DNA of 64,000 nucleotides from Candidatus Omnitrophota bacterium (GCA_015233115.1 JADFYJ010000002.1:38016-102015); one strand, 5' to 3'. Shown: positions 1,688 through 61,395, counted from the first letter of the stretch. The notes: generated by a model from the letters alone, not told the origin. Program-made: numbers and translations.

Positions 1688-2255
1688 TCATCCGGTCATA
1701 TGAATCTGAATACAAATCAAACGTTGACACATTCCCTGCGCAAGTAAATTGATAACCTTTATTATTCACAATTGTCCAAATATGCTTCATCTTAAGGTTT
1801 CCTTTACCAGGAAATTTGACAATATAAGAAAATAAATACGCGGGTTGGCCTGATAATTGAGTAGGTTTTGATTCAATGACATCGATATTGTCTTTAAAAA
1901 CAACCCGTACCTGATTGATTGCCGTATCCGTATACTGATCTAATTGTTTGGGTGATTTTTCTAAATTATCAACCACAATATTAACTGATTCGGGAATAGG
2001 TAATGGCTTAGATCTCAAATTTTTAATCTTAGCTATAAACTGTGAACTCACACCAGGGACTGGGGGTGAAACAAGCCAATCCTCCGGATATATCAGGCTA
2101 TAATGATCTTTATCGCTTTTATAAATTTGGTACCCTTCAGGCGCGGTTTGAGTATTTCCCTTAAATAAAAAAAATCCAACAATGATAACAACAACCAGCC
2201 CTACTCCCAGCAAAATAAAAGTCAATTGATCTTTCTTTCTCATGTTATCCTCCAA
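1662..2255 (-). CDS. hypothetical membrane-anchored protein
   Basis: Single N-terminal TM helix (LTFILLGVGLVVVIIVGFFLF) followed by a ~165-aa soluble domain. No motif recognised. Confidence 0.4.
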   Translation of the reverse strand: MEDNMRKKDQLTFILLGVGLVVVIIVGFFLFKGNTQTAPEGYQIYKSDKDHYSLIYPEDWLVSPPVPGVSSQFIAKIKNLRSKPLPIPESVNIVVDNLEKSPKQLDQYTDTAINQVRVVFKDNIDVIESKPTQLSGQPAYLFSYIVKFPGKGNLKMKHIWTIVNNKGYQFTCAGNVSTFDLYSDSYDRMIESFKITR

Positions 2256-3022
2256 AATACCGCGTCGCCATCATGTTCAAAATTTTTGGGCGCGGTTAAT
2301 TTTTGAGCCGCGTCTTTATCTAAAAAATAATTGATTTTCCCCAGCCGAGGATGAACGCGTCCGGCAGGGACATCAATGTGGTCTTCGAGCATTTTCTTTA
2401 CAATATCTGCTTTCTGCCTTCCTGTTACCAAAAAACCAACTTGACTGGCGCTATTAATCGCAGAAAAAGTTAAAGAAATCCTTTTATGCTTGACCCGTGG
2501 ATCCTCAACGGCGCAAACCAAATCTTTTTTAATTTCATCCGGCAGATAATCAGGAAATAATGATGCGGTATGCCCGTCTTCTCCCAAGCCCAAAATGACC
2601 AAATCAAAATAGGGAGCAACACCTATTTTCTGAAAAAATTCCATCATATGCTTCTGAGATAAAGCCGCAGCTTGTAAAACATCTTTAGCTTCTGTAACAA
2701 AAGGATGAACATTCCCCTGAGGAATTGATAAAAAATCTAATAAACATTCCTTCTGTATCCGGTAATTGCTTTCTGAACTGTCTGGTGTAACAAACCGTTC
2801 ATCGGTCTGAAAAACCTGCACCCGGTTCCACAAATCCATATCACCAACACCGGCTAATTTCGAAAAAAACTCAATAGGGGTTTTACCGCCGGGCAAGGCC
2901 ACCATAAAACAGCCGCGGGCTTGAATAGCTTCTTCAGCCGCTTTAAGCCATAATTTCAGAAGATGATTGGTCAGCTTATGAGTATTATCAAAAATGAATA
3001 ATTCTTGAATGGGAAATGGCAT
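2240..3022 (-). CDS. pgl: 6-phosphogluconolactonase (NagB/6PGL family)
   Basis: ILGLGEDGHTASLFP motif, characteristic of 6PGL and glucosamine-6-P deaminase. Lies next to transketolase (pentose-phosphate context). Confidence 0.65.
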   Translation of the reverse strand: MPFPIQELFIFDNTHKLTNHLLKLWLKAAEEAIQARGCFMVALPGGKTPIEFFSKLAGVGDMDLWNRVQVFQTDERFVTPDSSESNYRIQKECLLDFLSIPQGNVHPFVTEAKDVLQAAALSQKHMMEFFQKIGVAPYFDLVILGLGEDGHTASLFPDYLPDEIKKDLVCAVEDPRVKHKRISLTFSAINSASQVGFLVTGRQKADIVKKMLEDHIDVPAGRVHPRLGKINYFLDKDAAQKLTAPKNFEHDGDAVFWRIT

Positions 3023-3131: not shown

Positions 3132-4073
3132 TTATTTTAATTTTCTCAAAACCGCTTTTTTTGCTGTATCGGCGATATTAACCGCTCTCAAGCCATATTT
3201 CGCCAACAATTCATCCGGCGAACCGGTTTCTCCGAAGGAATCATGGACCGCCACCATTTCCATTGGCACCGGATAATTTTGAACCACAACTTCAGCGACA
3301 GCGCTTCCTAAGCCGCCGGCCATCTGATGTTCTTCGCTGGTCACAATCGCGCCGGTTTCTTTGGCGGATTTGATAATTAAATCTTTATCAATAGGTTTGA
3401 TCGTATGCATATTAATCACTTTAGCCTGAATGCCTTGCTTGGCTAAAATTTCAGCAGCTTCCAAAGACTCGGAAACCATGAGCCCGCTTCCGATTAAAGT
3501 CACATCTTTCCCTTCGCGCATGACAATGCCTTTACCAATTTCGAAAGGTGTTTTTTCGTCTGTCAAAACCGGCACAGCATTGCGGCTTAGCCGTAAATAA
3601 AACGGTCCAAACTGTTCTGAAATAGCTTTGGTCGCTTTAGCTGCCTCGACAGTATCCACCGGACAAATGACCCGCATGTTCGGCAGGACGCGCATTAAGG
3701 CGAGATCTTCTAATGATTGGGCTGATGCCCCGTCTTCACCCACAGTCAACCCTGCATGCGTGCAAATAACCTTGACGTTTGTGTTGTTGTAACACACGTC
3801 CATGCGTAACATATCATACGCACGGTTAGTCATGAAAACAGCGAATGAATTAATGAATACTGTAAACCCTTGGAGAGCTAATCCAGCGGCAGTGCCGACC
3901 ATATCCTGTTCAGCGATACCAACGCTAAAAAACCGTCCAGGAAATTCTTTTTTAAAATATTCAGCGCGAGTCGCGTCTTCCAAATCCGCAGACACCATAA
4001 CAATTTTATCATTAACTTTCCCAAGCCTGACTAATTCTTCCCCAAATCCATCTCTTGTCGCAACTGGTTTCAT
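3132..4073 (-). CDS. transketolase, C-terminal subunit (pyrimidine-binding plus C-terminal domain)
   Basis: Sequence typical of the transketolase central and C-terminal domains (GIAEQDMVGTAAGLALQG, ICTHAGLTVGEDGASAQ). Split transketolase with the N-terminal subunit encoded directly upstream. Confidence 0.85.
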   Translation of the reverse strand: MKPVATRDGFGEELVRLGKVNDKIVMVSADLEDATRAEYFKKEFPGRFFSVGIAEQDMVGTAAGLALQGFTVFINSFAVFMTNRAYDMLRMDVCYNNTNVKVICTHAGLTVGEDGASAQSLEDLALMRVLPNMRVICPVDTVEAAKATKAISEQFGPFYLRLSRNAVPVLTDEKTPFEIGKGIVMREGKDVTLIGSGLMVSESLEAAEILAKQGIQAKVINMHTIKPIDKDLIIKSAKETGAIVTSEEHQMAGGLGSAVAEVVVQNYPVPMEMVAVHDSFGETGSPDELLAKYGLRAVNIADTAKKAVLRKLK

Positions 4074-4097
4074 TAATTTCTCCTGATAAAGTACTTT

Positions 4098-4227
4098 GTA
4101 GGGGCGATCTCCCGATCGCCCGCTTACAAAATATTCGCTTTTTTATTTCAATAAAACAAACAAAAAAACCTGAAATGTTAAATTTATAAATCTTTTATAG
4201 TGCGGGCGATCGGGAGATCGCCCCTAC
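4098..4227. mobile_element. MITE-like element, family A (~130 bp, 26-bp perfect terminal inverted repeats)
   Basis: gtaggggcgatctcccgatcgcccgc, then an ~80-bp AT-rich core, then gcgggcgatcgggagatcgcccctac. About 90% identical to the copy at ~38326-38468. Each TIR is itself internally palindromic. Confidence 0.7.
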
Positions 4228-4247
4228 TACAGCGTCATTATTTACTC

Positions 4248-5069
4248 TCAACTTAACTCTTTCAAAGCCGCAGCAAGTTGTTCATTATTCGGCGCTTTGC
4301 CGTGCCACGCTGATTTTAATTCCATAAATGATACGCCTTTACCTTTGATAGTATTAGCTATAATCACATAGGGTTTGCCGGCGTTTATTTTACCGAAATC
4401 CTGATATGCTTTTAAAACCTCTTCAATTTTATTTCCGTCGATTTCAGCGACCACCCATCCGAAACTTTCCCATTTGGCTTTCAAAGGTTCCAGATTCATG
4501 ATGTCATTGACCATGCCGTTTTCCTGAACCTTATTATAATCAACAATCGCGCACACATTATCGAGTTTAAACTGCGCCGCGCTCATGGCCGCTTCCCAAA
4601 CCGACCCTTCCTGAATTTCTCCGTCGCCCATCAAACAATACATTTTCTGGTCTTTTTTAAGCAATTTAGCGCCGATCGCCAAACCATTAGCCACAGCTAA
4701 ACCATGCCCTAAAGAACCCGTGTTGAATTCCACGCCCGGCGTTTTTGTGGTCACATGGCCTTGCAAAATCCCGCCTAATTTGCGGTATTTTTTATATTCA
4801 TCTTTGGAAAAATATCCCGCGTTTGCCAAAACCGAGTAAACAACCGGCGACACATGGCCTTTGGAAATAATCACCATATCGCGGCCCGGCCAGCGGGGAT
4901 TTTTCGGATCATGACGAAGCTGACAGTCATATAACGCGACTAATATTTCCACTGCGGATAAAGACCCACCCGGATGGCCTGAACCAGCCATATTCGTCAA
5001 TTCCAAAATCTCCTGACGCACTAACAGCGCCTTTTGTTTTAATGCGTTAATGTCACAACAATTTTGCAC
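4248..5069 (-). CDS. transketolase, N-terminal subunit (TPP-binding)
   Basis: GSGHPGGSLS and GDGE..EG TPP-binding motifs. 273 aa. Confidence 0.85.
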   Translation of the reverse strand: MQNCCDINALKQKALLVRQEILELTNMAGSGHPGGSLSAVEILVALYDCQLRHDPKNPRWPGRDMVIISKGHVSPVVYSVLANAGYFSKDEYKKYRKLGGILQGHVTTKTPGVEFNTGSLGHGLAVANGLAIGAKLLKKDQKMYCLMGDGEIQEGSVWEAAMSAAQFKLDNVCAIVDYNKVQENGMVNDIMNLEPLKAKWESFGWVVAEIDGNKIEEVLKAYQDFGKINAGKPYVIIANTIKGKGVSFMELKSAWHGKAPNNEQLAAALKELS

Positions 5070-5170: not shown

Positions 5171-5398
5171 GTCACAAGGACACAAAGTCACAAGGTCACA
5201 AATAAAAATAAAAGTACAAAATAAAAAAACGACTGGTAAGCAGTTAACACCGAAGATAACTCAAACTGGTGATAAAATTTTGTTACATGTTTGACAAGTT
5301 ATGACTTTGCGTATATTTTTTTTGGCATTATTATTCGTTTTTTCCGAATCTTTTCTATCCTTTGTGACCTTGTGACCTTGTGACTTTGTGACTTTGTC
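5171..5398. repeat. IR-flanked intergenic element, family B (TIRs are tandem gtcacaaR octamers)
   Basis: Left arm ggtcacaaggacacaaagtcacaaggtcacaa. Right arm cctttgtgaccttgtgaccttgtgactttgtgactttgtc. About 160-bp AT-rich core. The right arm supplies the stop codon of the large REC-domain gene. Confidence 0.6.
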
Positions 5399-8300
5399 TA
5401 CGCTTTACTTCCAGCCTTATCATTCATCAGTTCCGAGAAGATCGGCAGGCTGGAAGGCGCTATGGGTTTGATATCAATTATATACGGACTTAACCCGTCA
5501 ATTTTGATGCTATTGATATCCTGCATTTCCACGGGTAAAGGCACACCATTGCCATCGCGTTTAATCTGCATATTTAACATAGCCGCGTTTAAGTCGATAC
5601 CACCGACGTCGTCTCTTTTTAATTGCGCGCTATCGGATTCATTTTTCTTTTGAACAAATAAAGCGGCTATAGGATCTACCGCGGCATAAATGGCATTAAT
5701 ACCATCCAATTTAGAAACTAAGCCATCAATTTTTGCTCGCGATACCGCCAATTTAACTTCATCCGTATATGCGTTAGCACTTATAATAATTGATTTCACG
5801 GCGTCCATTCCAGGAATTTTCCGTATTGATTCAATCATTTGAACGCCAGTTTTATTTTTCATGTTATAATCCGAAAAAAGCAATTCAGGTTTAAATGCGC
5901 CATCTGATATTATTTTTTCAGCCTCTTCTGGAGAGCTGGCAAGAACAACTTCATAGCCTCTATCTTTTAAAACCATCTCATACAATTCTCTGGTAAATTG
6001 ATTATCATCCACCACCAAAACCTTCATGGCGCGATCAGCAGCACCGGCAGCAGCTAATTTAGGGCCAATAAGCCATGGTGTTTTTGGAGCAGTTGTAGCT
6101 TTAATATATTTAAATGTCATTTCAGCAATAGCCATAAAAAATTTTACGTTTGAATCAGAATCGAGATTTTTACCTTCAGGCGAATCCAAACGTTTTTGAA
6201 TATTTCCGATTGAAATATAAGAACTTCCGCCTTGCATTATTAGAGCAGCCCTAATTTGCGAATCTGTAGCATCAGCTAAGGCCACTACGTTTCCAGTCTT
6301 GGCTGCTTCCGCCGCTACCATAGGTTTTAAATACTTATTCACTTCATCAACTAATGTTTTGACAGTTTCATCCTTGATCGGTGTGAATGCACCCTTTTTC
6401 CCCAGCATAGCCTGATCTTGCTCTAATAGCCTCACAATTTCTTCCACAACCATATACCCAAACAAAGTTAAATCTTCTGTATCCTCCGGGTTTTCCCCAT
6501 AATTAAAAGTTTTGTAATTAACTATAATTTTTTCTCCCTTATCCTTCGCTTCTCGTAATCTCTTGGCTACAGCGAGTACAGCTTGTTCTTGTTTTTCTTC
6601 AGCACTATTATAATCTAAACCTGCTATATGAATTTCAAATTCTACCTGGGACTCTAATATACCGCTAATCGCTTTCGGCGAACGCATAAGCACCTTAAAT
6701 GCCTCAGCAAGTTCCCCTTCTTTCAAAGGTGCGGCTGTTAGCATAGCATTATCATTAAAAATGCCAGCTTGTATAACCGGCCTAAGCAAATCAGTCCCTT
6801 CTACATCTGTTTTTCCTTTTGCGTCAGTTACTAATCCTGATATAACATTTCGTCCATTGGCACTTAAATCAAAAAATACTTCAACTTTCGGATGCTTTAA
6901 TAGAAAATTTATAAAAGCTCTTATCTCTCTTTCATTTTCTTTGTTTGCTCCATTATTAAGGGCCGTTTGTAATTCATTAATCAATTTTTTATTATCCTGA
7001 ACGCCCGCCATATGATTGACAAAATTATGACCTTCTGTTTTCATAAATCGAACCAGTGAAGATGCCGCCTTCTTGATATCTCTTCCCGGATTCCGGCCGG
7101 TCAGCCCTTCATAAAGAAAAAAGTTCATAGCAGAAAATAAAATCAGAACCGCTAAGATCCGGGTTGTTCGGTTAAAATTAATCCCCTTATCAAGAGCACG
7201 AATTATAAAATCATCATCTTTATTTTCATTTTTCTGATAAGTCTCGTTAATGTGTTGAGCAATTGCAGTCGATAAAAGCTGGGGGGAATTTAAAATTTGC
7301 TCAAAAGTATAATATTTATTCTTATTTTGCGCATCCTTGACAAACTTCCCCTCACTTTTTTTTGATTCTTGATCAATTGCCAAACATGCTCCAATAATCA
7401 TTCCATCTAAACTAAATAGTACTGTCCTCACTACTGCGAGAGGTTCTTCACTCAATTGTTTTCTTACTGATTCCCGCACTAGCTCAGGGTCATTCGTCTT
7501 CAAAATTTCTTCCAACATGGCGCGATCTGCCTCATTAGGTATGAGGGCATTCAACTCAGTTTGTATACGCGGTTCTTCACCTGATGATTCAAACATTTTT
7601 GAATAACGAGTGATTAATTCCAATCCATTTGGTTTTTGAGAAATTCTTGACCGCTGACGATCCAAACTAATACCGACTTCATCGATCGTTCTTTTTGTTC
7701 CATATATCTCCAGCAATTCTCTCTCTCGGGCAGTTAAGCTATCTTCTCTTTTTACTAATAAAGCATTGTCCATCTTACCTATAACCCCACCTGAAAAATA
7801 TTTTCTGGGGATCACCTGCTGACTGGTTGGGTCGTATTCTTCCTTGATATAGTCGTACACGCCTTTTTTAAAGGCTTCTAAATACTGTTCATAAATTTTC
7901 TGATTGGCTTCTTTGTCCGTTAAATCCACACCTTTGACTTTGGTTTTATCCGCGTAAATTTTGCCTAAAAGGCTTTGTTTTAAAGTACGTTTATACCAAG
8001 CGGCTAAGATCATGGACTGATAGATCTGGCGCAATAAGGCGAAATGTTCTCCGGAATTAACTTCTTTTTCCAGGGCCGGAATAATGATTTCCCTCACGAC
8101 TTGAGTGGTTACTGTGCTGGACTGATCAAGTTCAGATGCCTGCATTTGATTCGCGCTAATGGCTTCATTATTTTTGTTTTTCTGCAGGGCAACATAATCT
8201 TTGTCCAACATCACTTTTAAACTGCTGTCTACAATCCAGGCCACATTGTCTTTTTCATAGACCACAGCTTTTTGCGGGACAATCCACACCTTATTAAAGG

Positions 8301-8832
8301 TATTCATCGGCAGTTCAGTCACGCCGTATTTTTGAGCAGCTTCTTTATAAACTTTTTCCCAAAATTTTTTACCTAATTCATCTTCCGGGTACATTAAAGA
8401 CGCGGTTAATTGCTTAAGAATGTAATCCTGGCTTAAAAGATCGCGGCCCATTTCTGTCTGGCCGAAATCCTGCGCAATAATGCGGTTATTTTCATAGGGC
8501 GACAAGTTGACCCATTGGTTATTTTCAGGGACAGTTAAAGAAGCCAAGAAATATTTGACTAATTTTTTATATTCATCTTCCTGTATGGAACCGGTTAAAG
8601 GCTTATCTCCGGCTTCAATAAGGAATTTCATCTGCAAAGGATTTTTGGTGTCAATTTCAATACCGCGCACTAAAGCAGGATTAAATACAGCGGATGATTT
8701 GACCATAGTTCCAGCTGGAGGCATGAACATAGCAACCTGCGCCATAGCCCGGGACTGGAAACACGAAGTCCAACCAAAGGTTATAATAAGAAAACTACAA
8801 ATAAATTTGAATAACAAAGTTTTTTTATACAT
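5398..8832 (-). CDS. large (~1144 aa) signal-peptide/TM-anchored protein with C-terminal response-regulator receiver (REC) domain
   Basis: The track ORF extends to 9015. The likely start is MYKKTLLFKF at ~8832, preceded by GGGGG. N-terminal hydrophobic segment, ~900 aa without a motif I recognise, then KVLVVDDNQFTRELYE...LLFSDYNM...SIIISAN...KIDGLVSKL (REC). Confidence 0.5.
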   Translation of the reverse strand: MYKKTLLFKFICSFLIITFGWTSCFQSRAMAQVAMFMPPAGTMVKSSAVFNPALVRGIEIDTKNPLQMKFLIEAGDKPLTGSIQEDEYKKLVKYFLASLTVPENNQWVNLSPYENNRIIAQDFGQTEMGRDLLSQDYILKQLTASLMYPEDELGKKFWEKVYKEAAQKYGVTELPMNTFNKVWIVPQKAVVYEKDNVAWIVDSSLKVMLDKDYVALQKNKNNEAISANQMQASELDQSSTVTTQVVREIIIPALEKEVNSGEHFALLRQIYQSMILAAWYKRTLKQSLLGKIYADKTKVKGVDLTDKEANQKIYEQYLEAFKKGVYDYIKEEYDPTSQQVIPRKYFSGGVIGKMDNALLVKREDSLTARERELLEIYGTKRTIDEVGISLDRQRSRISQKPNGLELITRYSKMFESSGEEPRIQTELNALIPNEADRAMLEEILKTNDPELVRESVRKQLSEEPLAVVRTVLFSLDGMIIGACLAIDQESKKSEGKFVKDAQNKNKYYTFEQILNSPQLLSTAIAQHINETYQKNENKDDDFIIRALDKGINFNRTTRILAVLILFSAMNFFLYEGLTGRNPGRDIKKAASSLVRFMKTEGHNFVNHMAGVQDNKKLINELQTALNNGANKENEREIRAFINFLLKHPKVEVFFDLSANGRNVISGLVTDAKGKTDVEGTDLLRPVIQAGIFNDNAMLTAAPLKEGELAEAFKVLMRSPKAISGILESQVEFEIHIAGLDYNSAEEKQEQAVLAVAKRLREAKDKGEKIIVNYKTFNYGENPEDTEDLTLFGYMVVEEIVRLLEQDQAMLGKKGAFTPIKDETVKTLVDEVNKYLKPMVAAEAAKTGNVVALADATDSQIRAALIMQGGSSYISIGNIQKRLDSPEGKNLDSDSNVKFFMAIAEMTFKYIKATTAPKTPWLIGPKLAAAGAADRAMKVLVVDDNQFTRELYEMVLKDRGYEVVLASSPEEAEKIISDGAFKPELLFSDYNMKNKTGVQMIESIRKIPGMDAVKSIIISANAYTDEVKLAVSRAKIDGLVSKLDGINAIYAAVDPIAALFVQKKNESDSAQLKRDDVGGIDLNAAMLNMQIKRDGNGVPLPVEMQDINSIKIDGLSPYIIDIKPIAPSSLPIFSELMNDKAGSKA

Positions 8833-8942
8833 ATTTTTGCCCCCTTCTATAATAATCGGCCTACACTGAAAATATATACTATATTTGGAGAAAAACAAGA
8901 GCTGTAGGAAGATTATAAGAAAGCGGTTACAATAAAAAGTTA

Positions 8943-8973
8943 TAAAGGTGGTAAAGGTATAAAGGTGATAAAG
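8943..8973. repeat. tandem nonamer repeat (taaaggtgR x3.5), family G
   Basis: ataaaggtggtaaaggtataaaggtgataaagg. The reverse complement recurs at ~61366-61395. Confidence 0.4.
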
Positions 8974-8983
8974 GAAAATAAAA

Positions 8984-9030
8984 CTAAAAATAAAAAAGCC
9001 GCAGGTTGTGAACAATTATCCAACCTGCGG
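8984..9030 (-). terminator. rho-independent terminator downstream of the SET/speH-like operon
   Basis: Perfect 10-bp stem ccgcaggttg/caacctgcgg, followed on the minus strand by cttttttatttttag. Confidence 0.5.
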
Positions 9031-9054
9031 TTTGAATGACTCGTTGACTGATCC

Positions 9055-9510
9055 TTATCTCGCAAAAGCCGGAGCTAACGCTTCTTCTCGGCTGGATACG
9101 TATCCGCGGCAATTAGGCGCGCCACAGGAACAGTTGAACGGCTTAAACAGCACATCTTCTGTTTGTAGGTAATCCATGGTGATCAGTTCGCCCGGGTTAA
9201 TCGCCTGCACAGCAATGAATTGCCGTGTTTCCATGTTGCAGTACGTATTAGGATTACAACAATGCAAAACTTTACCCATAAAAAATGGGTCGTGCACATG
9301 TAAACCATTGCGATAACGCAAGGAATACTGAGTGATCTCAGTGACTAAAAACCCTGTAAACGCGAACACAATGTCGCCAGGCAGAAATGACTTTAAAGCC
9401 ATAACGCCGTTGCCGACACTGTCACCGATTTTTTGAATACGGAAATCTCCTGGTTTAGGCTCATAAGGAAATTCAGGTAATGAATCTGGATAGAATCGAT
9501 TTTTTATCAT
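9055..9510 (-). CDS. SET-domain protein (putative protein-lysine methyltransferase)
   Basis: GNGVMA (GxG). HCCNPNTYC matches the NHSCxPN motif. GELITMDY matches ELTFDY. Post-SET CSCGAPNCRG is present. Confidence 0.8.
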   Translation of the reverse strand: MIKNRFYPDSLPEFPYEPKPGDFRIQKIGDSVGNGVMALKSFLPGDIVFAFTGFLVTEITQYSLRYRNGLHVHDPFFMGKVLHCCNPNTYCNMETRQFIAVQAINPGELITMDYLQTEDVLFKPFNCSCGAPNCRGYVSSREEALAPAFAR

Positions 9511-9884
9511 CTTAATAGCACCTGGTAATTTGTGGTTGTTGGTCCAAAAGTTTTTTTCAAGAAGTCAACTACGGCTTCTTCCGAAAAAGTCTTGCAACTA
9601 AAGACATCCAGATACATATCGCCCGCCTGGTCATTGGTATGCATGGTGATAGCGCTGGTCTCGATTAATTGTACGCCTGAGATACCGGTTTGCACTCCTT
9701 TGCCAAAACGTTCGACAACAGGGTCACCAAAGGCAACCATATCAATCAATTTGACAAGTTTCGTTATCCAACCTGAAATAACTTTTTTGTCCAAAATATT
9801 GTCATTGCAGCCACGGGCGGTAATGATCAAATGTTTGCCATAATAAACAACCCCATCATATTTAATACATCTATATTCCTGCAT
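9507..9884 (-). CDS. S-adenosylmethionine decarboxylase proenzyme-like protein (SpeH/AdoMetDC family)
   Basis: GKHLIITARGCN, VQLIETSAITMHT and YLDVFSCKTF align with SpeH GRHLxAEFYxCD, ESHxxIHTWPE and DxFTCG. The canonical ES|H processing site is replaced by E-T-S. 4-nt overlap (ATGA) with the SET gene. Confidence 0.6.
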   Translation of the reverse strand: MQEYRCIKYDGVVYYGKHLIITARGCNDNILDKKVISGWITKLVKLIDMVAFGDPVVERFGKGVQTGISGVQLIETSAITMHTNDQAGDMYLDVFSCKTFSEEAVVDFLKKTFGPTTTNYQVLLR

Positions 9885-15652: not shown

Positions 15653-16972
15653 CTATTTTTCGAATTTTTTATACACCTTGATTCCATTCAATACATTGAT
15701 CGCGCCTTGAACCTGATTATCATTCAAAAGCTCGTCATGAATTTCAGCCGCGCGTTTTTTGGCCGCGTCTTGCTCCTGAACCGGAGCAGGCTTATTCGTC
15801 TTCTCTACATTTTCAAAAATAGAATCCACATCTTTTTCATTCGGATCTTTTTTCTTGGCATCTTCATCATCCTTCTTAGGATAAATCCGTTCGATCACCA
15901 CATCCGGAATAATACCCTTTTCATGGATCGAAACACCAGAAGGAGTAAAATACTTTGCCGTCGTTAAACGAAGACCGGAACCATCCGGCATCGGAATCAC
16001 GGACTGCACAGACCCTTTTCCGAATGATTTTGTACCTAAAAGAACCGCTCGTTTATTATCTTTTAATGCACCGGCTAAAATCTCGCTTCCGGAGGCGCTT
16101 CCCTGATTGATCATAACCACTGTCGGCCAAGGGACCACATGGTCTTTGTTCGTCGACAAAGCGATTGAATTCTGACTTTCTCTGCGTCCTTTGGTTGAAA
16201 CAATAGTCTTGCCTTCAGGTAAAAACTCTTCGGTAATGGCAATGGCTACATTCAACAGACCGCCCGGATTATTACGGAGATCCAGAATCAACCCTTCCGC
16301 TCCCTGAGTTTTTAACTGCTCAACTGCTTTATGAAATTCCTTATATGAATCTTCACGGAATTCCGTTAAACGGATGTATCCGATATTATCCTTTAAAATT
16401 TGGGTATTTTTAATGTCCTGGATATGTATGATTTCACGGGTTAACGTGAATTCCAAAATTTTCGAATCACTCTCCCTCAAAACCGTAATCGTGACTTTTG
16501 TGCCGGGTTCTCCGCGCAACTTTTTGACAGCGTCATTCAAGGTCATATCACGGGTGATAACATTTTCAATCTTAACAATACGATCGCCGGATTTAACACC
16601 TGCCCGCCATGCCGGCGTGTCTTCGATCGGAGTAATAATCGTCAACAAACCATCTTTGACCGTAATCTCAATTCCCAAACCTCCAAATTTTCCTTCTGTC
16701 TCGGTTTTCAAATCTTTGTACTCATCTGGATCAAGAAATTGACTGTGCGGATCCAGAGATGATAATAGACCTTTCAGCGAGCCATAGATCAAATCTTTCG
16801 GCTTAACATCATCCACATATTCCGTCTTGACCGTGGTTAACGCGTAGCTGAACAACTCGATTTGCGTGAACAAATCATCTTTAACCGCGCGGTCCATTTG
16901 TGAAACAGCCAATGTCCCTATCGATAAAACACCGACAATACCGATAATGGCTATAAAAATTTTCTTACGCAT
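15653..16972 (-). CDS. ctpA: carboxyl-terminal processing protease (S41 family, PDZ domain)
   Basis: Signal/TM N-terminus, PDZ domain (GDRIVKIENV) and S41 catalytic region (GSASGSEILAGAL...SFGKGSVQ). Confidence 0.85.
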   Translation of the reverse strand: MRKKIFIAIIGIVGVLSIGTLAVSQMDRAVKDDLFTQIELFSYALTTVKTEYVDDVKPKDLIYGSLKGLLSSLDPHSQFLDPDEYKDLKTETEGKFGGLGIEITVKDGLLTIITPIEDTPAWRAGVKSGDRIVKIENVITRDMTLNDAVKKLRGEPGTKVTITVLRESDSKILEFTLTREIIHIQDIKNTQILKDNIGYIRLTEFREDSYKEFHKAVEQLKTQGAEGLILDLRNNPGGLLNVAIAITEEFLPEGKTIVSTKGRRESQNSIALSTNKDHVVPWPTVVMINQGSASGSEILAGALKDNKRAVLLGTKSFGKGSVQSVIPMPDGSGLRLTTAKYFTPSGVSIHEKGIIPDVVIERIYPKKDDEDAKKKDPNEKDVDSIFENVEKTNKPAPVQEQDAAKKRAAEIHDELLNDNQVQGAINVLNGIKVYKKFEK

Positions 16973-22408: not shown

Positions 22409-23349
22409 GAGGATAATTCAAATGCCAGTTTAATTGCTTCACACATTGACGCCGGATCCGCCATATTTTTCCCGGCAATATCAAATGCGGTTCCGTGCGC
22501 GGTTGATGTCCGGATAAACGGCAGACCAATCGTCAAATTAACCAGATTAGGAAAAAATAAAGCTTTAATCGGACCTAAACCTTGATCATGGTACAAAGAA
22601 ATAATCGCGTCATATTTTTTCGCGTTATGAGGCACAAACAACGTATCCGCGGCAAACGGACCGCAAATTTTCATTTTTTGTTTTTGAGCCGCTAAGATAG
22701 CCGGCAAAACCACCTTAATATCTTCCTTGCCAATCCGTCCGCCTTCACCCGCATGCGGATTCAAACCGCAAACCGCGATTTGCGGATCTTTAATCTTAAA
22801 CATACTCTTAAGAATATGATGAGTCATGGCAATGGTCCCGCCTAAATTTTTCCTGGTTACTGCCGTCGGCACTTGTGACAAAGGAATATGCCGCGTCGCA
22901 ATAATCACCCGCCATGTTCCAGCTACAAAAAGCATTTCCACATTCTTCACGCCAAAAGCTTCCGCTAAATATTCCGTATGTCCATGGAATCCGGGTAGAC
23001 TAAAAGAAACCCATTCTTTACTCAAGGGCCCAGTCACCAGCGCATCAATTTTTTTGGCTTGAATCAATTCAACACTGGTTTTTAAATATTCCAACGATGC
23101 TTGACCACTCTCCAAAGATGGCTTCCCCAATTTCCATTTATTTTTAGGCAATAAATTCACGTCTAAAAAAGTACAATTTTTCAAATTGCGGATCGGAAAA
23201 TGTTCCATCACAAAATAATCACCGATAATAACAAAATGGCCAAGCCGCTGAATATCCGGCCGGCTCAAAGCTTGGGCGGTTATCTCCGGGCCAACGCCGC
23301 AGGGATCGCCTAACGTGATTCCGATAATTTTATTTTTTGATTTCAACAT
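22405..23349 (-). CDS. pdxA: 4-hydroxythreonine-4-phosphate dehydrogenase
   Basis: IGITLGDPCGVGPEI and PdxA family sequence throughout. Classic surA-pdxA-ksgA arrangement. Confidence 0.85.
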   Translation of the reverse strand: MLKSKNKIIGITLGDPCGVGPEITAQALSRPDIQRLGHFVIIGDYFVMEHFPIRNLKNCTFLDVNLLPKNKWKLGKPSLESGQASLEYLKTSVELIQAKKIDALVTGPLSKEWVSFSLPGFHGHTEYLAEAFGVKNVEMLFVAGTWRVIIATRHIPLSQVPTAVTRKNLGGTIAMTHHILKSMFKIKDPQIAVCGLNPHAGEGGRIGKEDIKVVLPAILAAQKQKMKICGPFAADTLFVPHNAKKYDAIISLYHDQGLGPIKALFFPNLVNLTIGLPFIRTSTAHGTAFDIAGKNMADPASMCEAIKLAFELSS

Positions 23350-24265
23350 ACGTTTTCGCTTTTAATTTCAGTAACCATTTTTCAAACTTTTCTTTAAATT
23401 TTCGGCGGTAAACCACTTCATAGGCAAAATTTTTCACATCTTCATACGCCGCTATTTTTTCCGGCGAATGTCCTAGCAATTTAAAAATAAAATACCCATT
23501 TTCAACTTCAAATATGTCAGACGTCTCATCCATTTTAAGGGCCAATAATTTTGTTTCAATATCATCCCTTAATTGGCCGCGCTCAATCGTGCCAATGGAC
23601 GGCGTATCTGAATAATCCGCAGCAATCTTTTTAAAATCATCCCCTTTTTTGACTCTATCCAACGCCGCTTCAATCTTTTTCCGGGCCGCTTGTTTATTCG
23701 TGCCGAAAGCGATGTAAATCGAATCTAAACTTAACGATTCTTTGCGTTTAAATTGATCTTTGTTAGATGAAAAAAAATCTTCAACTTCTTTTGGGTTTAC
23801 GGTAATTTTTTCCCTTATTTCATTATCTATTATATATTTAATCTTTAGCTGATCTCGAATTTTATGGCGTAAATCTGTTAAATTGGACCCATTACTGACC
23901 AGATCCGTCATAAAATCCGCTTCTGAACGGTACTGAGATTTTAACTGATCAACCCGCTCATCTACTCCAGATTCTCGTATTTCCATTTTCTTTTCATTGG
24001 CATAACTCAAAATGATTTTATCTTCAATCATTTTTTCAATCCCATTCGCTTCCAAATCCTTCATCACCGCATCAATCTGCCGGGGATCCATACCATCCGC
24101 TACTAAACTGACATAGGTTGAATGTAGATAATCTTTAAGATCTTTCATGGTGATCAACTCTTTATTGACCACCGCGACAATCGCGTCATCCACCGCCTGA
24201 GCAGACGAAACCCAACCTCCTAGCAAAAATAAAATAACAAAAAAATATTTAAAAAAAGTTTTCAT
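23330..24265 (-). CDS. periplasmic chaperone/peptidyl-prolyl isomerase, SurA/PrsA-like
   Basis: Signal peptide, SurA-N-like region, degenerate parvulin domain. Conserved position upstream of pdxA. Confidence 0.6.
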   Translation of the reverse strand: MKTFFKYFFVILFLLGGWVSSAQAVDDAIVAVVNKELITMKDLKDYLHSTYVSLVADGMDPRQIDAVMKDLEANGIEKMIEDKIILSYANEKKMEIRESGVDERVDQLKSQYRSEADFMTDLVSNGSNLTDLRHKIRDQLKIKYIIDNEIREKITVNPKEVEDFFSSNKDQFKRKESLSLDSIYIAFGTNKQAARKKIEAALDRVKKGDDFKKIAADYSDTPSIGTIERGQLRDDIETKLLALKMDETSDIFEVENGYFIFKLLGHSPEKIAAYEDVKNFAYEVVYRRKFKEKFEKWLLKLKAKTYVEIKK

Positions 24266-48930: not shown

Positions 48931-50163
48931 TTACCCTCCTGTTGACATTTTAAACAAAGGCAAAAACATTGCCACTACAATGGTCCCTATGACTGCACCC
49001 ATAAAAACAATCATTACGGGTTCTATCATCGTTGAAACCCTTTTAATATATACTTCAACCAATTCTTGATAATATTTAGAAACATGTTTCAACATCTTAC
49101 TTAACTCACCTGTCTCTTCCCCTACACTAATAAGCTGAACACACATGGCAGGAAAAAAACCACTTTTTTCCATCGGTGTCACTATGAGTTCGCCCTTTTT
49201 TACTCCTTCTTTTATGCTCCTCACAATTTTCGAACAGGTAATATTATCCACTAATTTTTCGGCAATATCCAATGCCGCTAAAATAGGCACCCCCGCTTCG
49301 ATTAAAATAGCCATTTGCCCAGAAAATCGTTCCACGACTATGAGCCGAAATACTTGACCCACACTAGGAACTTTAAATAAAAAATGTTCAAACCCTTCTT
49401 TCCCATGCGGAGTTTTAATAAATTGAAGAAATAAATATCCTGCCACCCCGATACCCGCGACAATAAACATAAAATAATTCCTGACAAAAGCGAATATGGA
49501 TAACAAAATGATCGTAATCATGGGCAGTTTTATATTCATAGATTTAAATATAGACTCAAAACGTGGTCCAACAAACAAAGCGAAAAAGGCAATTGCTCCG
49601 CACGCGACACAAAATAATAAAATGGGATATATGAGACTGGATACAATGGTCGTCCTAAACCCATTTTGCTGATCCATGTAGAAAGTCAATTTATTCAAAA
49701 CAGTCGGCAAAGAGCCTGAAGCTTCTCCAACCTCAACCAAACTCACCCAAAATTGATTAAACGCCTTAGGATGCTTGGCCAAGGCTTGGCTTAAAGAAAG
49801 ACCTTTTTCCACATCTTCTTTAATCTTAGCGACAATCTTGCTCAAACGTTCACTTTCCACTTGGCCACTGATGACTTCCAAACTGCGCATGAGCGATACC
49901 CCAGCCTCGAGCATGGTGGCTAACTGACGGGCAAAAACAATAAGATCCTGAAGTTTAATGACTTTATGTTTGTGTTTGACTGTAACCCGATGAAGCGGCG
50001 CGCCTCTTTTCTGGCCTGCTTGCAAAGAGAATTCCGTAATACTAATAACAAAATATCCCTGCCGCTGTAACAAATCAGACGCAGTAATACGATCTGAAGC
50101 ATCAACAAAGTTCTCCACAGATCTACCATTTTTATCTTTAGCAATAAAACTAAAACGAGGCAA
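48931..50163 (-). CDS. pilC: type IV pilus assembly platform protein PilC (GspF family)
   Basis: MPRFSFIAKDKNGRSVE start. Two GspF repeats, 3 TM. Confidence 0.9.
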   Translation of the reverse strand: MPRFSFIAKDKNGRSVENFVDASDRITASDLLQRQGYFVISITEFSLQAGQKRGAPLHRVTVKHKHKVIKLQDLIVFARQLATMLEAGVSLMRSLEVISGQVESERLSKIVAKIKEDVEKGLSLSQALAKHPKAFNQFWVSLVEVGEASGSLPTVLNKLTFYMDQQNGFRTTIVSSLIYPILLFCVACGAIAFFALFVGPRFESIFKSMNIKLPMITIILLSIFAFVRNYFMFIVAGIGVAGYLFLQFIKTPHGKEGFEHFLFKVPSVGQVFRLIVVERFSGQMAILIEAGVPILAALDIAEKLVDNITCSKIVRSIKEGVKKGELIVTPMEKSGFFPAMCVQLISVGEETGELSKMLKHVSKYYQELVEVYIKRVSTMIEPVMIVFMGAVIGTIVVAMFLPLFKMSTGG

Positions 50164-50215
50164 TTTTAACTCCTGCTTAATGATTAAATTTTTCTTTGTG
50201 ACCCTGTGACTTTGC

Positions 50216-53523: not shown

Positions 53524-53535
53524 AAAACACTCCTT

Positions 53536-54030
53536 TTATGGTTTAAGTGTGTAAGTCTCGCCTTGAAAAGAAACAGCCACGCCTTCTTTTGTTATCGATA
53601 GAATCTTAATAATTAAATCTTCCGAAGTCGATTGTTCAGAACCTTCTGGTATTCCCACATTATTTTTTGGGGCAGACGTCGATATCGTTGACGTATAGGG
53701 TAACACATCGCCCACATTATATACTTTATTGTCAATAATAGCTTGAGGCCGATCTGAATTCCAAACTAAACCTTTCACCACAAAAGGTGGCAAAGAAAGC
53801 TTCACCGGAGGAGGTGGAGGCGGAGTCGGTTCCGGAGCAGGTGTTGGCTCCGGATTCAGGTTCGGGTTCGGCGTTGGAGCCAGATTCGGTTCAGGCGCGA
53901 GAATTGGTTTCTCTGCTATAGGCATTTGAACCTCAAAAGGATCTTTTTCAAATTCAATTTCTTCAGCCCAAGAAATAACCGGCCAAATTAAAATCATTAC
54001 TGAAATTATAAAAATAATTTTCTTATTCAT
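53536..54030 (-). CDS. PilP-like pilus assembly lipoprotein (putative)
   Basis: Signal peptide, Pro-rich linker, C-terminal beta domain. Assignment by position between the PilO-like gene and pilQ. Confidence 0.4.
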   Translation of the reverse strand: MNKKIIFIISVMILIWPVISWAEEIEFEKDPFEVQMPIAEKPILAPEPNLAPTPNPNLNPEPTPAPEPTPPPPPPVKLSLPPFVVKGLVWNSDRPQAIIDNKVYNVGDVLPYTSTISTSAPKNNVGIPEGSEQSTSEDLIIKILSITKEGVAVSFQGETYTLKP

Positions 54031-54622: not shown

Positions 54623-54626
54623 AAAA

Positions 54627-56180: not shown

Positions 56181-56422
56181 ACTCTCCCCGAATCTTTTAT
56201 ACACGGAACACAACACAAATTTCAGTGGCTGATTTTTAGTTTTTGGTTTTTAGAAAAAAATATATTTGATTAGCAACAACAACCAACCAACGACCAACAA
56301 CCAGTATTACTGTATTGTGCCCCAAGTTTTAAGATTGCATATGTATCTTATGTAAAAAAAAACAATAAGTCTATAATATTCTAAAAAATTTTTTGCTTTG
56401 TGCAAATGAATCCTCCTACTCA

Positions 56423-61275: not shown

Positions 61276-61365
61276 ATAAGTTCTTTCTCAAATTTTTATT
61301 CAGGAGGGTCGGGGACCCTCCCCTACGCTTTCTTTTCTCACTAATCGTTTTTTATCATTTTTTTT

Positions 61366-61395
61366 TCCTTTACCACCTTTATACCCTTACCACCT
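61366..61395. repeat. family G tandem nonamer repeat (reverse complement of the 8943 copy)
   Basis: cctttaccacctttatacccttaccaccttta. Overlaps the uvrA stop and the last codons. Confidence 0.4.

What the first reader, a model, noticed from the sequence alone, without database searches (positions are those of the whole stretch)
5398..8832. About 1144-aa protein with N-terminal signal/anchor, large unrecognised domain and C-terminal receiver (REC) domain
The REC domain has the full Asp/Thr/Lys signature, but sits at the C-terminal end of a protein with an N-terminal hydrophobic signal-like segment and ~900 aa of sequence with no motif I can name. It has no output domain of a classical response regulator and no kinase domain. 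A strong GGGGG RBS and a dedicated upstream region with a family G repeat are present. The protein may be a giant scaffold regulated by phosphorylation.
Basis: partly seen in the sequence, partly recalled or inferred. Interest (0 to 1): 0.5.

Follow-up and report, generated by a model that had tools for sequence, protein, structure and literature searches.

The report
Omnitrophota cargo-carrier protein with receiver domain
This gene is not a lone odd response regulator: it belongs to a very large, undescribed Omnitrophota protein family that puts a secretion-type leader, a conserved 320-residue head and a conserved 60-residue tail around interchangeable cargo, here an orphan 570-residue region plus a receiver domain.

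Summary
The gene lies on the minus strand (5398-8832) and encodes 1144 aa. The receiver (REC) domain is real and has all its phosphorylation residues, but it is followed by about 90 further residues.

The "900 unrecognised residues" are two different things.
- Residues 32-354 are a strongly conserved module (about 55-60% identity), preceded by a Sec-type leader ending A-x-A|Q.
- Residues 359-932 are a true orphan: the only match among 1.84 billion representative proteins is the protein itself.

Residues 1071-1144 form a second conserved module (GGIDLN...IKRDGNGVPLP...).

All 119 best homologues share only the head and the tail. Their middles include full-length PGK, PGI, TIM, FBPase, enolase, GGDEF, REC and HEAT domains, or nothing recognisable. 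At least 581 loci exist in GTDB species genomes. All come from Omnitrophota or likely mislabelled MAGs, with several old paralogues per genome.

A short linker motif, D-x-A-M, is 12-fold enriched in the family and brackets the modules, including this REC domain.

Neither conserved module matches any Pfam, NCBIfam, PHROG, PADLOC or PDB entry, and no paper describing them was found.

Best reading (confidence about 0.45): an exported modular carrier in which REC is cargo, not the master switch. The contradiction between a secretion leader and cytoplasm-type cargo is unresolved and is the interesting part.

The parts
5398..8832 (-). Whole gene, 1144 codons plus stop (stop codon at 5398-5400)
   Evidence: ORF list and translation. 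Identical over 100% of its length to NCBI MBF0478121.1.
8840..8844 (-). GGGGG ribosome-binding site, 7 nt upstream of the ATG
   Evidence: Read directly from the sequence.
8934..8983 (.). Upstream repeat of about 50 nt built from CCTTTAYC/ACCTTTA units. A second copy lies at 61358-61407 in the opposite orientation. Function unknown.
   Evidence: blastn gives 90% identity over 50 nt. Alignment.
8990..9033 (-). Hairpin plus T-run that ends the upstream SET-domain gene. It separates the two transcription units.
   Evidence: Inverted repeat aaccgcaggttg...caacctgcgg followed by ctttttta, read. The simple terminator scan did not list it.
8740..8832 (-). Sec-type leader, residues 1-31: basic n-region (KK), hydrophobic core at residues 5-24, and A-M-A|Q as the predicted signal peptidase I site
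   Evidence: Hydropathy analysis. The same layout, ending in [AS]-x-A|Q, occurs in nearly all of the 48 aligned relatives. No signal-peptide predictor was run.
7771..8739 (-). Conserved N-module, residues 32-354. Invariant motifs: WVNLSPYE, TEMGRDLL-QDY-LKQ, NTFNKVWI, EKEVNEG, PRKYFSGG.
   Evidence: Shared by 119 of 119 top homologues. Mean column identity is 66%. pLDDT reaches 90+ in the full-length model. No match in Pfam, NCBIfam, PHROG, PADLOC or PDB. No fold match.
7759..7770 (-). Linker motif variant D-N-A-L (residues 355-358), directly after the N-module
   Evidence: In 42 relatives a D-x-A-M lies within 40 residues after the N-module.
6037..7758 (-). Orphan cargo region, residues 359-932, mostly predicted helical. 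D-x-A-M motifs cut it into segments of 77, 254, 108 and 123 residues.
   Evidence: Exhaustive phmmer against 1.84e9 representatives found only the protein itself. No internal repeats and no relatives inside the family. The AF2 model is low-confidence here.
7636..7743 (-). Weak helix-turn-helix-like stretch, residues 364-399, resembling sigma-70 region 4. It scores below the Pfam threshold.
   Evidence: PF04545, E 0.003, 17.5 bits against a cut-off of 24.1. Partly shared by 16-34 of 119 relatives.
7516..7527 (-). Linker motif D-R-A-M (residues 436-439)
7102..7158 (-). Borderline hydrophobic helix, residues 559-577 (ILAVLILFSAMNFFLYEGL). It could be a transmembrane helix or a buried helix.
   Evidence: Kyte-Doolittle score 1.62. 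A crude Hessa-scale sum gives 1.9, against 1.5 for the leader. Such interior segments are rare in the family (10 of 120).
6742..6753 (-). Linker motif D-N-A-M (residues 694-697)
6406..6417 (-). Linker motif D-Q-A-M (residues 806-809)
6025..6036 (-). Linker motif D-R-A-M (residues 933-936). Its Met is followed directly by KVLVVDD, the first strand of REC.
5635..6024 (-). Receiver (REC) cargo module, residues 937-1066, with D942, D943, D988, S1018 and K1041
   Evidence: PF00072, 52.8 bits. CheY-family hits in the PDB. Residue mapping onto CheY.
5623..5634 (-). Linker motif variant D-S-A-Q (residues 1067-1070), just before the C-tail
   Evidence: In 35 relatives a D-x-A-M lies within 40 residues before GGIDL.
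5401..5622 (-). Conserved C-tail module, residues 1071-1144. Family consensus: vGGIDLNpAlLNLQIKRDGnGVPLP..QQ.i.n..IdGfvPVIinI.Pv..LP.
   Evidence: Aligned in 118-119 of 119 homologues. Consensus. Predicted beta-rich, pLDDT 62-84. Divergent variants occur in further loci. No database match.

Best explanation
The gene encodes one member of a very large, Omnitrophota-restricted family of modular proteins. This protein is built as follows:

1. A Sec-type signal peptide, predicted to be cut after A31.
2. A conserved N-module of about 320 residues.
3. A variable cargo region, whose modules are separated by short D-x-A-M linkers.
4. A conserved beta-rich C-tail of about 60 residues.

In this protein the cargo is four orphan helical segments plus a phosphorylation-competent REC domain.

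**Shown**
- The architecture itself.
- The coupling of N-module and C-tail.
- The replaceability of the cargo.
- The orphan status of the middle.
- The intact REC residues.
- The enrichment and placement of the linker motif.

**Inferred**
- The leader sends the whole polypeptide across the cytoplasmic membrane by the Sec route. The N-module and C-tail then act as the common handling modules for recognition, anchoring or onward transport. A type II secretion/secretin system encoded 40 kb away is one candidate route. The cargo would end up on the cell surface or in a partner or prey cell.
- The REC domain is therefore a delivered or displayed signalling module, not the regulator of a scaffold.
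- Because REC and the ATP/UTP-dependent enzyme cargoes of relatives need nucleotides or phosphodonors, their working place would have to be a nucleotide-containing compartment. The cytoplasm of a host or prey cell is one example, which fits the host-dependent lifestyle proposed for this phylum.
For: **Architecture and coupling**
- All 119 best homologues align only to residues 1 to about 355 and about 1075-1130. The 120th hit still scores 457 bits.
- Members that first appeared to lack a tail in fact carry divergent GGIDL tails.
- N-terminal and C-tail subtypes are associated, with odds ratio 11 and p = 8e-7.

**Distribution**
The 80 listed loci are all from Omnitrophota or from MAGs labelled Planctomycetales.
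- Up to 7 paralogues from one assembly appear among those 80 loci, and they are often in tandem.
- The paralogues are old: N-module identity is 59.7% within an assembly and 54.4% between assemblies. This points to strong purifying selection on the N-module.

**Leader**
- A basic n-region, a hydrophobic core of 15-18 residues, a proline break and [AS]-x-A|Q occur in nearly all relatives.
- Interior transmembrane-like segments are rare (10 of 120), so head and tail lie on the same side of the membrane.

**Cargo diversity**
- Precomputed Pfam domains of relatives are very diverse.
- The enzymes are full length: PGK 369 bits, PGI 630 bits, TIM, FBPase_3 and enolase.
- 42 of 50 shorter members have no Pfam-recognisable cargo.
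- This protein's middle has no homologue among 1.84e9 representatives.

**REC**
- The REC residues are intact here, and the acceptor Asp is kept in the REC cargoes of relatives.

**Linker motif**
- D-x-A-M occurs 214 times against 17.8 expected.
- It lies at Pfam-domain borders.
- It is absent from other ORFs of the window.

**Export machinery in the window**
- SecDF, a SurA-like PPIase, and GspD/E/F plus a PilM-like gene are all present.
- A preprint reports that a gspDEF-Rotamase_2 locus is conserved across Omnitrophota (10.1101/2023.11.21.568195).
Against: - No signal-peptide or topology predictor could be run, and export has not been demonstrated.
- The cargo domains (REC here; PGK, PGI, TIM, kinases, GGDEF and sigma-54 AAA+ in relatives) are typical cytoplasmic proteins. 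They need ATP, NTPs or phosphodonors that a periplasm or external medium lacks. This argues against simple secretion unless delivery into another cell occurs.
- The N-module has many invariant polar residues. That would also fit an enzyme, such as a processing or ligating domain, rather than a passive handling module.
- No conserved neighbouring gene, and so no dedicated machinery, was found in the 80 loci.
- The T2SS cluster is 40 kb away and is not specifically linked to this gene.
- The query has one borderline interior hydrophobic helix (559-577). If it spans the membrane, REC and the C-tail would be cytoplasmic.
- The structure models are of moderate confidence (pLDDT 65 for the N-module alone, 55 overall). 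The statement that there is no known fold is therefore provisional.
Confidence: 0.45

Rival explanations
1. Polyprotein precursor. The D-x-A-M motifs are cleavage sites, cut by a dedicated protease or by the N-module itself. Cleavage would release the cargo modules as separate proteins, here four orphan pieces and a free single-domain CheY-like REC beginning M-KVLVVDD. The N-module and C-tail would serve only production, transport or processing. This can hold together with the export model or inside the cytoplasm.
For: - The motif is 12-fold enriched (214 against 17.8 expected) and specific to the family.
- It lies directly after the N-module, directly before the C-tail, and at Pfam-domain borders.
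- In the query, D-R-A-M sits immediately before the first strand of REC, so cutting after Ala would give a native-looking N-terminus.
- The motif is encoded by different codons at different sites, so selection acts on the protein, not the DNA.
- The N-module has invariant Ser, Lys, Asp and Glu residues, as a hydrolase might.
- Post-translational cleavage has been proposed for Omnitrophota giant proteins (10.1101/2023.11.21.568195).
Against: - No protease-family match for the N-module in Pfam, NCBIfam or the PDB.
- No known protease specificity corresponds to D-x-A|M.
- Several family members have no D-x-A-M at all: P0014, P0054 and P0025.
- The motif could simply be a conserved helix-capping or linker element, or the retained start Met of captured genes.
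Confidence: 0.25
2. The protein is a membrane-anchored, cytoplasm-facing scaffold or atypical response regulator of the producer cell. The N-terminal helix tethers it to the inner membrane. Alternatively, helix 559-577 spans the membrane, so that the N-module is a periplasmic sensor and REC is cytoplasmic. Phosphorylation of REC by an orphan kinase would then regulate the helical middle.
For: - REC has every residue needed for phosphotransfer, which makes sense only where phosphodonors exist.
- A borderline transmembrane-like helix lies at 559-577.
- The cargo of relatives is cytoplasm-type.
- A 2026 preprint reads many long Omnitrophota proteins as membrane-anchored with cytoplasmic domains (10.64898/2026.06.07.730766).
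Against: - The basic n-region before the hydrophobic core, together with the A-x-A|Q site, predicts N-in insertion and cleavage. That puts the bulk of the protein outside.
- 110 of 120 relatives have no interior segment that could bring the chain back across the membrane. A single spanning helix here would separate the N-module and C-tail, which are co-conserved and lie on one side in the rest of the family.
- REC is replaceable cargo, not a conserved feature.
- No histidine kinase was found among the ORFs scanned in the window.
Confidence: 0.2
3. Self-assembling display system. The C-tail of one molecule docks onto the N-module of another, or onto a common scaffold, in the manner of dockerin-cohesin pairing or donor-strand complementation. 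This would build surface fibres or layers that carry enzymes and signalling domains.
For: - N-module and C-tail are strictly coupled, and their subtypes co-vary.
- The C-tail is a small beta-rich unit with Asp/Gly/Asn-rich loops.
- Genes are often in tandem.
- Dockerin-type giant proteins have been reported in this phylum.
Against: - No dockerin, cohesin or pilin match.
- Subtype co-variation is equally explained by common descent.
Confidence: 0.1

Closest known systems
Type IX secretion cargo proteins of Bacteroidota (signal peptide + cargo + conserved C-terminal domain)
   Same: A Sec leader at the N-terminus, arbitrary cargo, and a small conserved beta-rich C-terminal domain of 60-100 residues shared by many paralogues in each genome.
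   Different: No match to the T9SS CTD models in Pfam or NCBIfam. A conserved 320-residue N-module is present in addition. The cargo is cytoplasm-type enzymes and signalling domains rather than hydrolases and adhesins. The phylum is different.
Two-partner secretion TpsA proteins and CdiA-type polymorphic toxins (signal peptide + conserved N-terminal TPS domain + variable remainder)
   Same: A leader followed by a strongly conserved N-terminal domain of about 250-320 residues, which in those systems is the recognition handle for the transporter. The regions downstream are variable and exchangeable.
   Different: No haemagglutination-activity/TPS domain match. The N-module is predicted to be mixed alpha/beta, not a beta-helix. 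The variable part lies in the middle, and a conserved C-tail follows it.
Classical response regulators and single-domain CheY-like proteins
   Same: A REC domain with the acidic pocket, acceptor Asp, Ser/Thr and Lys all present.
   Different: REC makes up about 11% of the protein. It sits near the C-terminal end behind a secretion-type leader and 900 other residues. It has no adjacent output domain and is not conserved among the protein's closest relatives.
Omnitrophota giant 'multi-enzyme' and dockerin-type proteins (West-Roberts et al. 2023 preprint; 2026 complete-genome preprint)
   Same: The same phylum. Signal peptides and membrane association are predicted for most. The domain repertoire is the same: sugar-metabolism enzymes, ROK kinases, HEAT, REC/GGDEF/HATPase. 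Post-translational cleavage has been suggested.
   Different: Those papers deal with proteins above 10,000-30,000 residues and, in the passages found, do not describe the N-module, the C-tail or the D-x-A-M linker. Whether the giants carry these modules was not tested here.
Mycobacterial PE/PPE proteins
   Same: A lineage-specific, highly expanded family in which a conserved N-terminal domain is coupled to very diverse downstream regions and serves export.
   Different: No sequence or fold relationship. PE/PPE proteins have no Sec leader and no conserved C-terminal module, and they use type VII secretion.

Membership tests
Response regulator receiver domain (PF00072) | Match to the REC profile above the curated threshold | tested here: met
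   52.8 bits against a gathering score of 30.2, residues 938-1052. CheY-family chains in the PDB match at E 1e-7 to 1e-4.
Response regulator receiver domain (PF00072) | Acidic pair, phospho-acceptor Asp, Thr/Ser and Lys at CheY positions 12/13, 57, 87 and 109 | tested here: met
   D942/D943, D988, S1018 and K1041 align to these positions. Position 87 is Ser, not Thr.
Classical two-component response regulator (REC + output domain, partnered with a histidine kinase) | Recognised output domain joined to REC (OmpR, NarL, NtrC, LytTR, GGDEF and similar) | tested here: not met
   No such Pfam or NCBIfam match. There is only a sub-threshold sigma-70 region-4-like stretch 540 residues upstream of REC.
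Classical two-component response regulator (REC + output domain, partnered with a histidine kinase) | Cognate histidine kinase encoded nearby | tested here: inconclusive
   No HisKA or HATPase protein among the 30 larger ORFs of the window scanned. Small ORFs and the rest of the genome were not examined.
Hybrid histidine kinase | HisKA and HATPase_c domains in the same polypeptide | tested here: not met
   No match at E up to 1.
Unnamed Omnitrophota 'leader + N-module + cargo + C-tail' family (defined here) | Sec-like leader ending [AS]-x-A|Q, followed within about 15 residues by P-x-P-G-x-M-V | tested here: met
   The query has ...SRAMA|QVAMFMPPAGTMV. The same layout occurs in nearly all of the 48 aligned relatives.
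Unnamed Omnitrophota 'leader + N-module + cargo + C-tail' family (defined here) | N-module with invariant WVNLSPYE, TEMGRD, DY-LKQ, TFNKVW, EKEVN-G and PRKYFSGG | tested here: met
   All invariant columns of alignment A1 are present in the query, which is 53-63% identical to 35 relatives.
Unnamed Omnitrophota 'leader + N-module + cargo + C-tail' family (defined here) | C-terminal GGIDLN...IKRDG-GVPLP...IDG-xP-I--I-P module within the last ~110 residues (median 18, at most 81 residues follow it) | tested here: met
   Residues 1077-1125 of the query match the consensus, which is aligned in 118-119 of 119 relatives.
Unnamed Omnitrophota 'leader + N-module + cargo + C-tail' family (defined here) | D-x-A-M linkers between modules (present in a subset of the family) | tested here: met
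   The query has four D-x-A-M and two variants, against 0.17 expected.
Type IX secretion cargo | C-terminal domain matching the Por secretion tail / T9SS CTD profiles | tested here: not met
   The C-tail alone gives no NCBIfam, Pfam or PADLOC match at E up to 1.
Two-partner secretion TpsA | N-terminal TPS (haemagglutination activity) beta-helix domain | tested here: not met
   No Pfam match. The model is mixed alpha/beta.
Cellulosome-type dockerin-bearing proteins | Duplicated calcium-binding dockerin repeat (PF00404) | tested here: not met
   No Pfam match. The C-tail has a single RDGNG loop, not the duplicated F-hand.
Sec-dependent exported protein | Cleavable signal peptide recognised by a trained predictor, with experimental export | not testable with these tools
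   Only hydropathy and the -3/-1 rule could be applied. SignalP and DeepTMHMM were not available.

The most novel reading that the evidence does not exclude
The leader, N-module and C-tail define a previously unrecognised, phylum-wide protein-sorting or delivery system of Omnitrophota. The system would carry fully functional cytoplasm-type enzymes, including whole glycolytic steps, and signalling domains such as this REC. The destination would be outside the producer's cytoplasm: either a host or prey cell, or a separate nucleotide-containing compartment. D-x-A-M sites would serve to release the cargo there.
Probability: 0.3. Interest if true: 0.9.

Novelty: new variant of a known kind. Interest (0 to 1): 0.66.

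Why it matters
- Omnitrophota are widespread, uncultured, ultra-small bacteria thought to depend on or prey upon other cells. How they interact with partner cells is not known.
- The family found here has hundreds to thousands of members and several old paralogues per genome. Its two conserved modules have no database or literature record that I could find.
- The family combines a secretion-type leader with cargo that should only work inside a cell, such as PGK, PGI, TIM, kinases and REC.
- If the proteins are exported, this is a candidate effector or cargo-delivery system and gives a ready-made catalogue of what these bacteria send out.
- If they are not exported, the family shows an unusual way of tethering or processing core metabolism.
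- In either case the N-module, the C-tail and the D-x-A-M linker are concrete features that can be searched for. They would improve annotation of a large share of Omnitrophota 'hypothetical proteins' and give cleavage-site hypotheses for their long proteins.
- For this particular gene, the annotation 'response regulator' is misleading.

Tried and rejected
- **Homologue search with the middle region (residues 401-936) in the word-indexed database.** It returned nothing, not even the protein itself, so I treated this null as unreliable. I replaced it with the exhaustive phmmer run, which found only the protein itself.
- **Homologue search with the C-tail alone.** It returned 9 short fragments from tiny contigs. 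This says nothing about whether the tail ever occurs without the N-module.
- **Fold searches.**
  - Foldseek against the PDB with the full-length model gave a best E of 1.
  - Foldseek against viral structures gave a best E of 0.036 with TM 0.09.
  - The afdb50 library was not available.
- **Profile of the N-module against PDB sequences.** No hit at E up to 10.
- **Other profile libraries.** PHROGs, PADLOC and NCBIfam gave nothing meaningful for any of the three unassigned parts.
- **Full-length AF2 model.**
  - The noisy alignment columns in the cargo region spoiled even the REC domain.
  - Coordinates cannot be read, so the idea that the C-tail completes the N-module fold could not be tested.
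- **Conserved-neighbour analysis of 80 loci.** The largest 'cluster' was an antisense shadow ORF inside the N-module. The remainder were housekeeping genes, including trp genes and generic response regulators.
- **Viral origin.** Only 3 hits in 2.9 million viral contigs, so this was rejected.
- **DNA-level recombination site at the D-x-A-M motifs.** The flanks are not conserved and codons differ between sites, so this was rejected.
- **Internal repeats in the orphan middle.** None found.
- **Literature.** Searches by topic and by motif strings, and three Omnitrophota papers queried by keyword search, found no description of the family.
- **Scripting errors.** Two regex scripts failed through my own pattern errors and were corrected.

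Full report
**1. What is at the coordinates**

The ORF is on the minus strand. The mechanical ORF runs 5398-9015 from a TTG. The ATG at 8832 is preceded by GGGGG at 8840-8844. Translation from that ATG gives 1144 residues. This product is identical over its full length to NCBI protein MBF0478121.1, annotated 'response regulator', from a Candidatus Omnitrophica MAG.

All homologues align from this ATG, so the longer reading is an artefact of the AT-rich intergenic region. A hairpin with a T-run (about 8990-9033) closes the upstream SET-domain gene. The gene therefore has its own upstream region. That region contains a repeat of about 50 nt (8934-8983), with a second copy at 61358-61407.

**2. 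The receiver domain**

Pfam finds one significant domain: Response_reg, at residues 938-1052, scoring 52.8 bits against a cut-off of 30.2. NCBIfam and the PDB give only REC-type matches.

Pairwise alignment to E. coli CheY places D942/D943, D988, S1018 and K1041 at CheY positions 12/13, 57, 87 and 109. The domain therefore looks able to be phosphorylated. The conserved hydroxyl residue is Ser, not Thr.

REC is not the C-terminal end of the protein. Ninety-two residues follow it.

**3. The decisive result: the protein belongs to a large modular family**

The homologue search gave 120 listed hits. The 120th still scores 457 bits. Each covers only about 30% of the query at about 50-60% identity, and their precomputed Pfam domains are very mixed.

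Mapping the alignments onto the query gives this pattern:

| Query residues | Hits aligned (of 119) |
|---|---|
| 41-340 | 118-119 |
| 1081-1120 | 118-119 |
| 521-920 | 0 |
| REC | 6-11 |

The family architecture is therefore leader + N-module (residues 32-354) + variable middle + C-tail (residues about 1071-1130).

- **N-module.** Mean column identity is 66% over 36 sequences, with 53 invariant positions. The invariant motifs are WVNLSPYE, TEMGRDLL-QDY-LKQ, NTFNKVWI, EKEVNEG and PRKYFSGG.
- **C-tail.** The consensus is vGGIDLNpAlLNLQIKRDGnGVPLP..QQ.i.n..IdGfvPVIinI.Pv..LP.
- **Coupling.** Family members that at first seemed to lack the tail carry divergent versions of it, such as GGIDL..MNLQT...GEIKF.LDP...GFVPVIINIQP. 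N-module and C-tail are thus essentially always found together. N-terminal and C-tail subtypes are associated, with odds ratio 11 and p = 8e-7. This shows that the two ends are inherited together. It does not prove contact between them.

**4. Distribution**

The 80 loci listed all come from Omnitrophota MAGs or from MAGs labelled 'uncultured Planctomycetales' or 'bacterium'.
- One assembly contributes 7 N-modules to those 80 loci, and another contributes 5.
- Many loci show two members in tandem, or a C-tail directly upstream of the next N-module.
- The query's own MAG has at least one more member, P0005 (HQL26_01210). None lies in this window.
- Paralogues are old. N-module identity is 59.7% within assemblies and 54.4% between them. 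The N-module has therefore been held nearly constant while everything between the ends was replaced.
- Only 3 of 2.9 million viral contigs carry the N-module.
- No conserved neighbouring gene was found. In this window the neighbours are housekeeping genes: split transketolase, 6-phosphogluconolactonase, a PsbP-like protein, a SET-domain protein and an AdoMetDC-like protein.

**5. The cargo**

In relatives the middle carries genuine, full-length enzymes:
- PGK, 369 bits, covering profile positions 3-379 of 379.
- PGI, 630 bits.
- TIM together with FBPase_3.
- An enolase whose two domains appear in swapped order.

Other relatives carry UGPase, phosphoglucomutase, ROK and PfkB kinases, glycogen-synthase-type transferases, GGDEF, sigma-54 AAA+, PP2C, HATPase, REC, HEAT repeats and methyltransferases. 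Among 50 shorter members, 42 have no Pfam-recognisable cargo at all.

The query's own middle (residues 356-936) is a true orphan:
- HMMER read all 1.84 billion representative proteins and found only the query itself.
- It has no internal repeats and no relatives inside the family. The sole exception is a marginal similarity of residues 827-918 to a HEAT-repeat member.
- A sub-threshold sigma-70 region-4-like helix-turn-helix lies at residues 364-399.
- Part of residues 356-420 is shared with a minority of relatives.

**6. A linker motif**

D-x-A-M, usually followed by L, T or V, occurs 214 times in the 120 proteins (the query and its 119 relatives). Shuffles predict 17.8.
- Forty-two copies lie just after the N-module.
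- Thirty-five lie just before GGIDL.
- The rest are interior. Where Pfam domains are present, they lie at domain borders.

The query has D-R-A-M at 436, D-N-A-M at 694, D-Q-A-M at 806 and D-R-A-M at 933, against 0.17 expected. It also has the variants D-N-A-L at 355 and D-S-A-Q at 1067. All other ORFs of at least 150 residues in the window together contain one copy, against 1.0 expected.

These motifs cut the protein into the N-module, segments of 77, 254, 108 and 123 residues, REC (130 residues) and the C-tail. REC begins at the residue immediately after the Met of D-R-A-M. Codons differ between sites and the flanks are not conserved, so selection acts on the peptide. Some family members lack the motif. 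Its function is unknown. Cleavage sites are the most attractive reading.

**7. What the conserved modules are**

Neither module matches any of the following:
- Pfam, NCBIfam, PHROGs or PADLOC.
- A profile search of PDB sequences.

On structure:
- AF2 with 36 sequences gives a mixed alpha/beta N-module, with pLDDT 64.8 and pTM 0.64.
- In the full-length run with 50 sequences, large parts of the N-module reach pLDDT 80-94. The C-tail, beta-rich, reaches 62-84.
- Foldseek against the PDB and BFVD gives nothing significant.

The fold is therefore unassigned, with the caveat that model quality is moderate. Topic and motif-string searches of the paper library, and keyword searches within three Omnitrophota papers, turned up no description of the family. 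Those papers do report that long Omnitrophota proteins mix sugar-metabolism, kinase and signalling domains, mostly have signal peptides or transmembrane helices, and may be cleaved.

**8. Topology**

The leader has these features in almost every member:
- A basic n-region.
- A hydrophobic core of 15-18 residues.
- A proline break.
- [AS]-x-A followed by Gln.

By the positive-inside and -3/-1 rules this is a cleavable Sec signal. That is established knowledge applied by eye, since no predictor was available.

Interior transmembrane-like segments are rare: 10 of 120 by a crude Hessa-scale sum. Head and tail therefore lie on the same side of the membrane, and by inference on the outside. The query has one borderline helix at 559-577. 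A single span there would split head from tail, unlike the rest of the family, so I consider a buried helix more likely.

The window also encodes SecDF, a SurA-like PPIase, an S41 tail-specific protease and a GspD/E/F plus PilM-like cluster. These show that export routes exist. They do not show a link to this gene.

**9. Interpretation**

The best-supported statement is about identity. This is a member of an undescribed Omnitrophota family in which a leader, an N-module and a C-tail frame exchangeable cargo, and REC is part of the cargo.

For mechanism I commit, at about 0.45, to Sec-dependent export with the two conserved modules as common handling units. I suspect, at about 0.25 and not exclusively, that D-x-A-M marks processing sites.

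The main argument against export is the cargo itself. REC, PGK, kinases, GGDEF and similar domains need nucleotides or phosphodonors. Either the cargo ends up in another cell or compartment that supplies them, or the leader does not do what it appears to do. I could not resolve this. It is the reason the finding deserves follow-up.

It is weakened because REC is not conserved in the family and because of the predicted topology.

**10. Verdict**

The gene is a new member of a family that itself appears undescribed. In kind, the family resembles leader-plus-sorting-domain cargo systems such as T9SS cargo, TpsA and PE/PPE. It fails every membership test for these and has an unusual class of cargo.

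Noticed in passing
window 48931-56216 (minus strand): A type II secretion / type IV pilus-like cluster: GspF-like (48931-50163), a GspE-like ATPase with an MshEN domain (50216-51958), a secretin (51955-53523) and a PilM-like protein (54627-56216). A preprint reports that a gspDEF plus Rotamase_2 locus is conserved across Omnitrophota near giant genes. A SurA/Rotamase_2 PPIase lies at 23330-24265.
   Followed up: partly
window 8934-8983 and 61358-61407: A repeat of about 50 nt (90% identical, opposite orientations) built from CCTTTAYC/ACCTTTA units. One copy lies 100-150 nt upstream of the finding's gene. The other lies at the junction between the UvrA-like gene and the next TPR gene. Function unknown.
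   Followed up: partly
window 5171-5202, 5361-5392 and 50188-50214: A 32-nt inverted-repeat pair (90%) sits in the intergenic region between the finding's gene and the transketolase gene. A third partial copy lies between the GspF-like and GspE-like genes.
   Followed up: no
P0101 (relative, 1415 aa), residues 742-1261: The enolase cargo of this family member has its two Pfam domains in swapped order: Enolase_C at 742-1026 comes before Enolase_N at 1054-1261. This suggests a circular permutation or rearrangement.
   Followed up: no
window 3132-5069 (minus strand): Transketolase is encoded as two separate genes, an N-terminal TPP-binding part (4248-5069) and a pyrimidine-binding/C-terminal part (3132-4073). 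They are followed by 6-phosphogluconolactonase (2240-3022) and a PsbP-like protein (1662-2255).
   Followed up: no
window 9055-9884 (minus strand): A SET-domain protein (9055-9510) overlaps by 4 nt with an AdoMetDC/SpeD-like protein (9507-9884), directly upstream of the finding's gene. A paper in the library (PMC10407285) discusses neofunctionalised SpeD homologues and mentions Omnitrophota.
   Followed up: no
loci L016, L030, L032, L034, L041, L046, L048, L060, L073, L077, L078: Some family members carry a second, divergent C-tail type, such as GGIDL..MNLQT...GEIKF.LDP...L..LQNAPGFVPVIINIQP. The BLAST query built from the window's tail did not detect it. The tail module therefore has at least two subfamilies.
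   Followed up: partly
window 15653-16972 (minus strand): An S41 C-terminal processing (tail-specific) protease with a PDZ domain. This is a common periplasmic enzyme, noted only because the family has a conserved C-terminal module.
   Followed up: no
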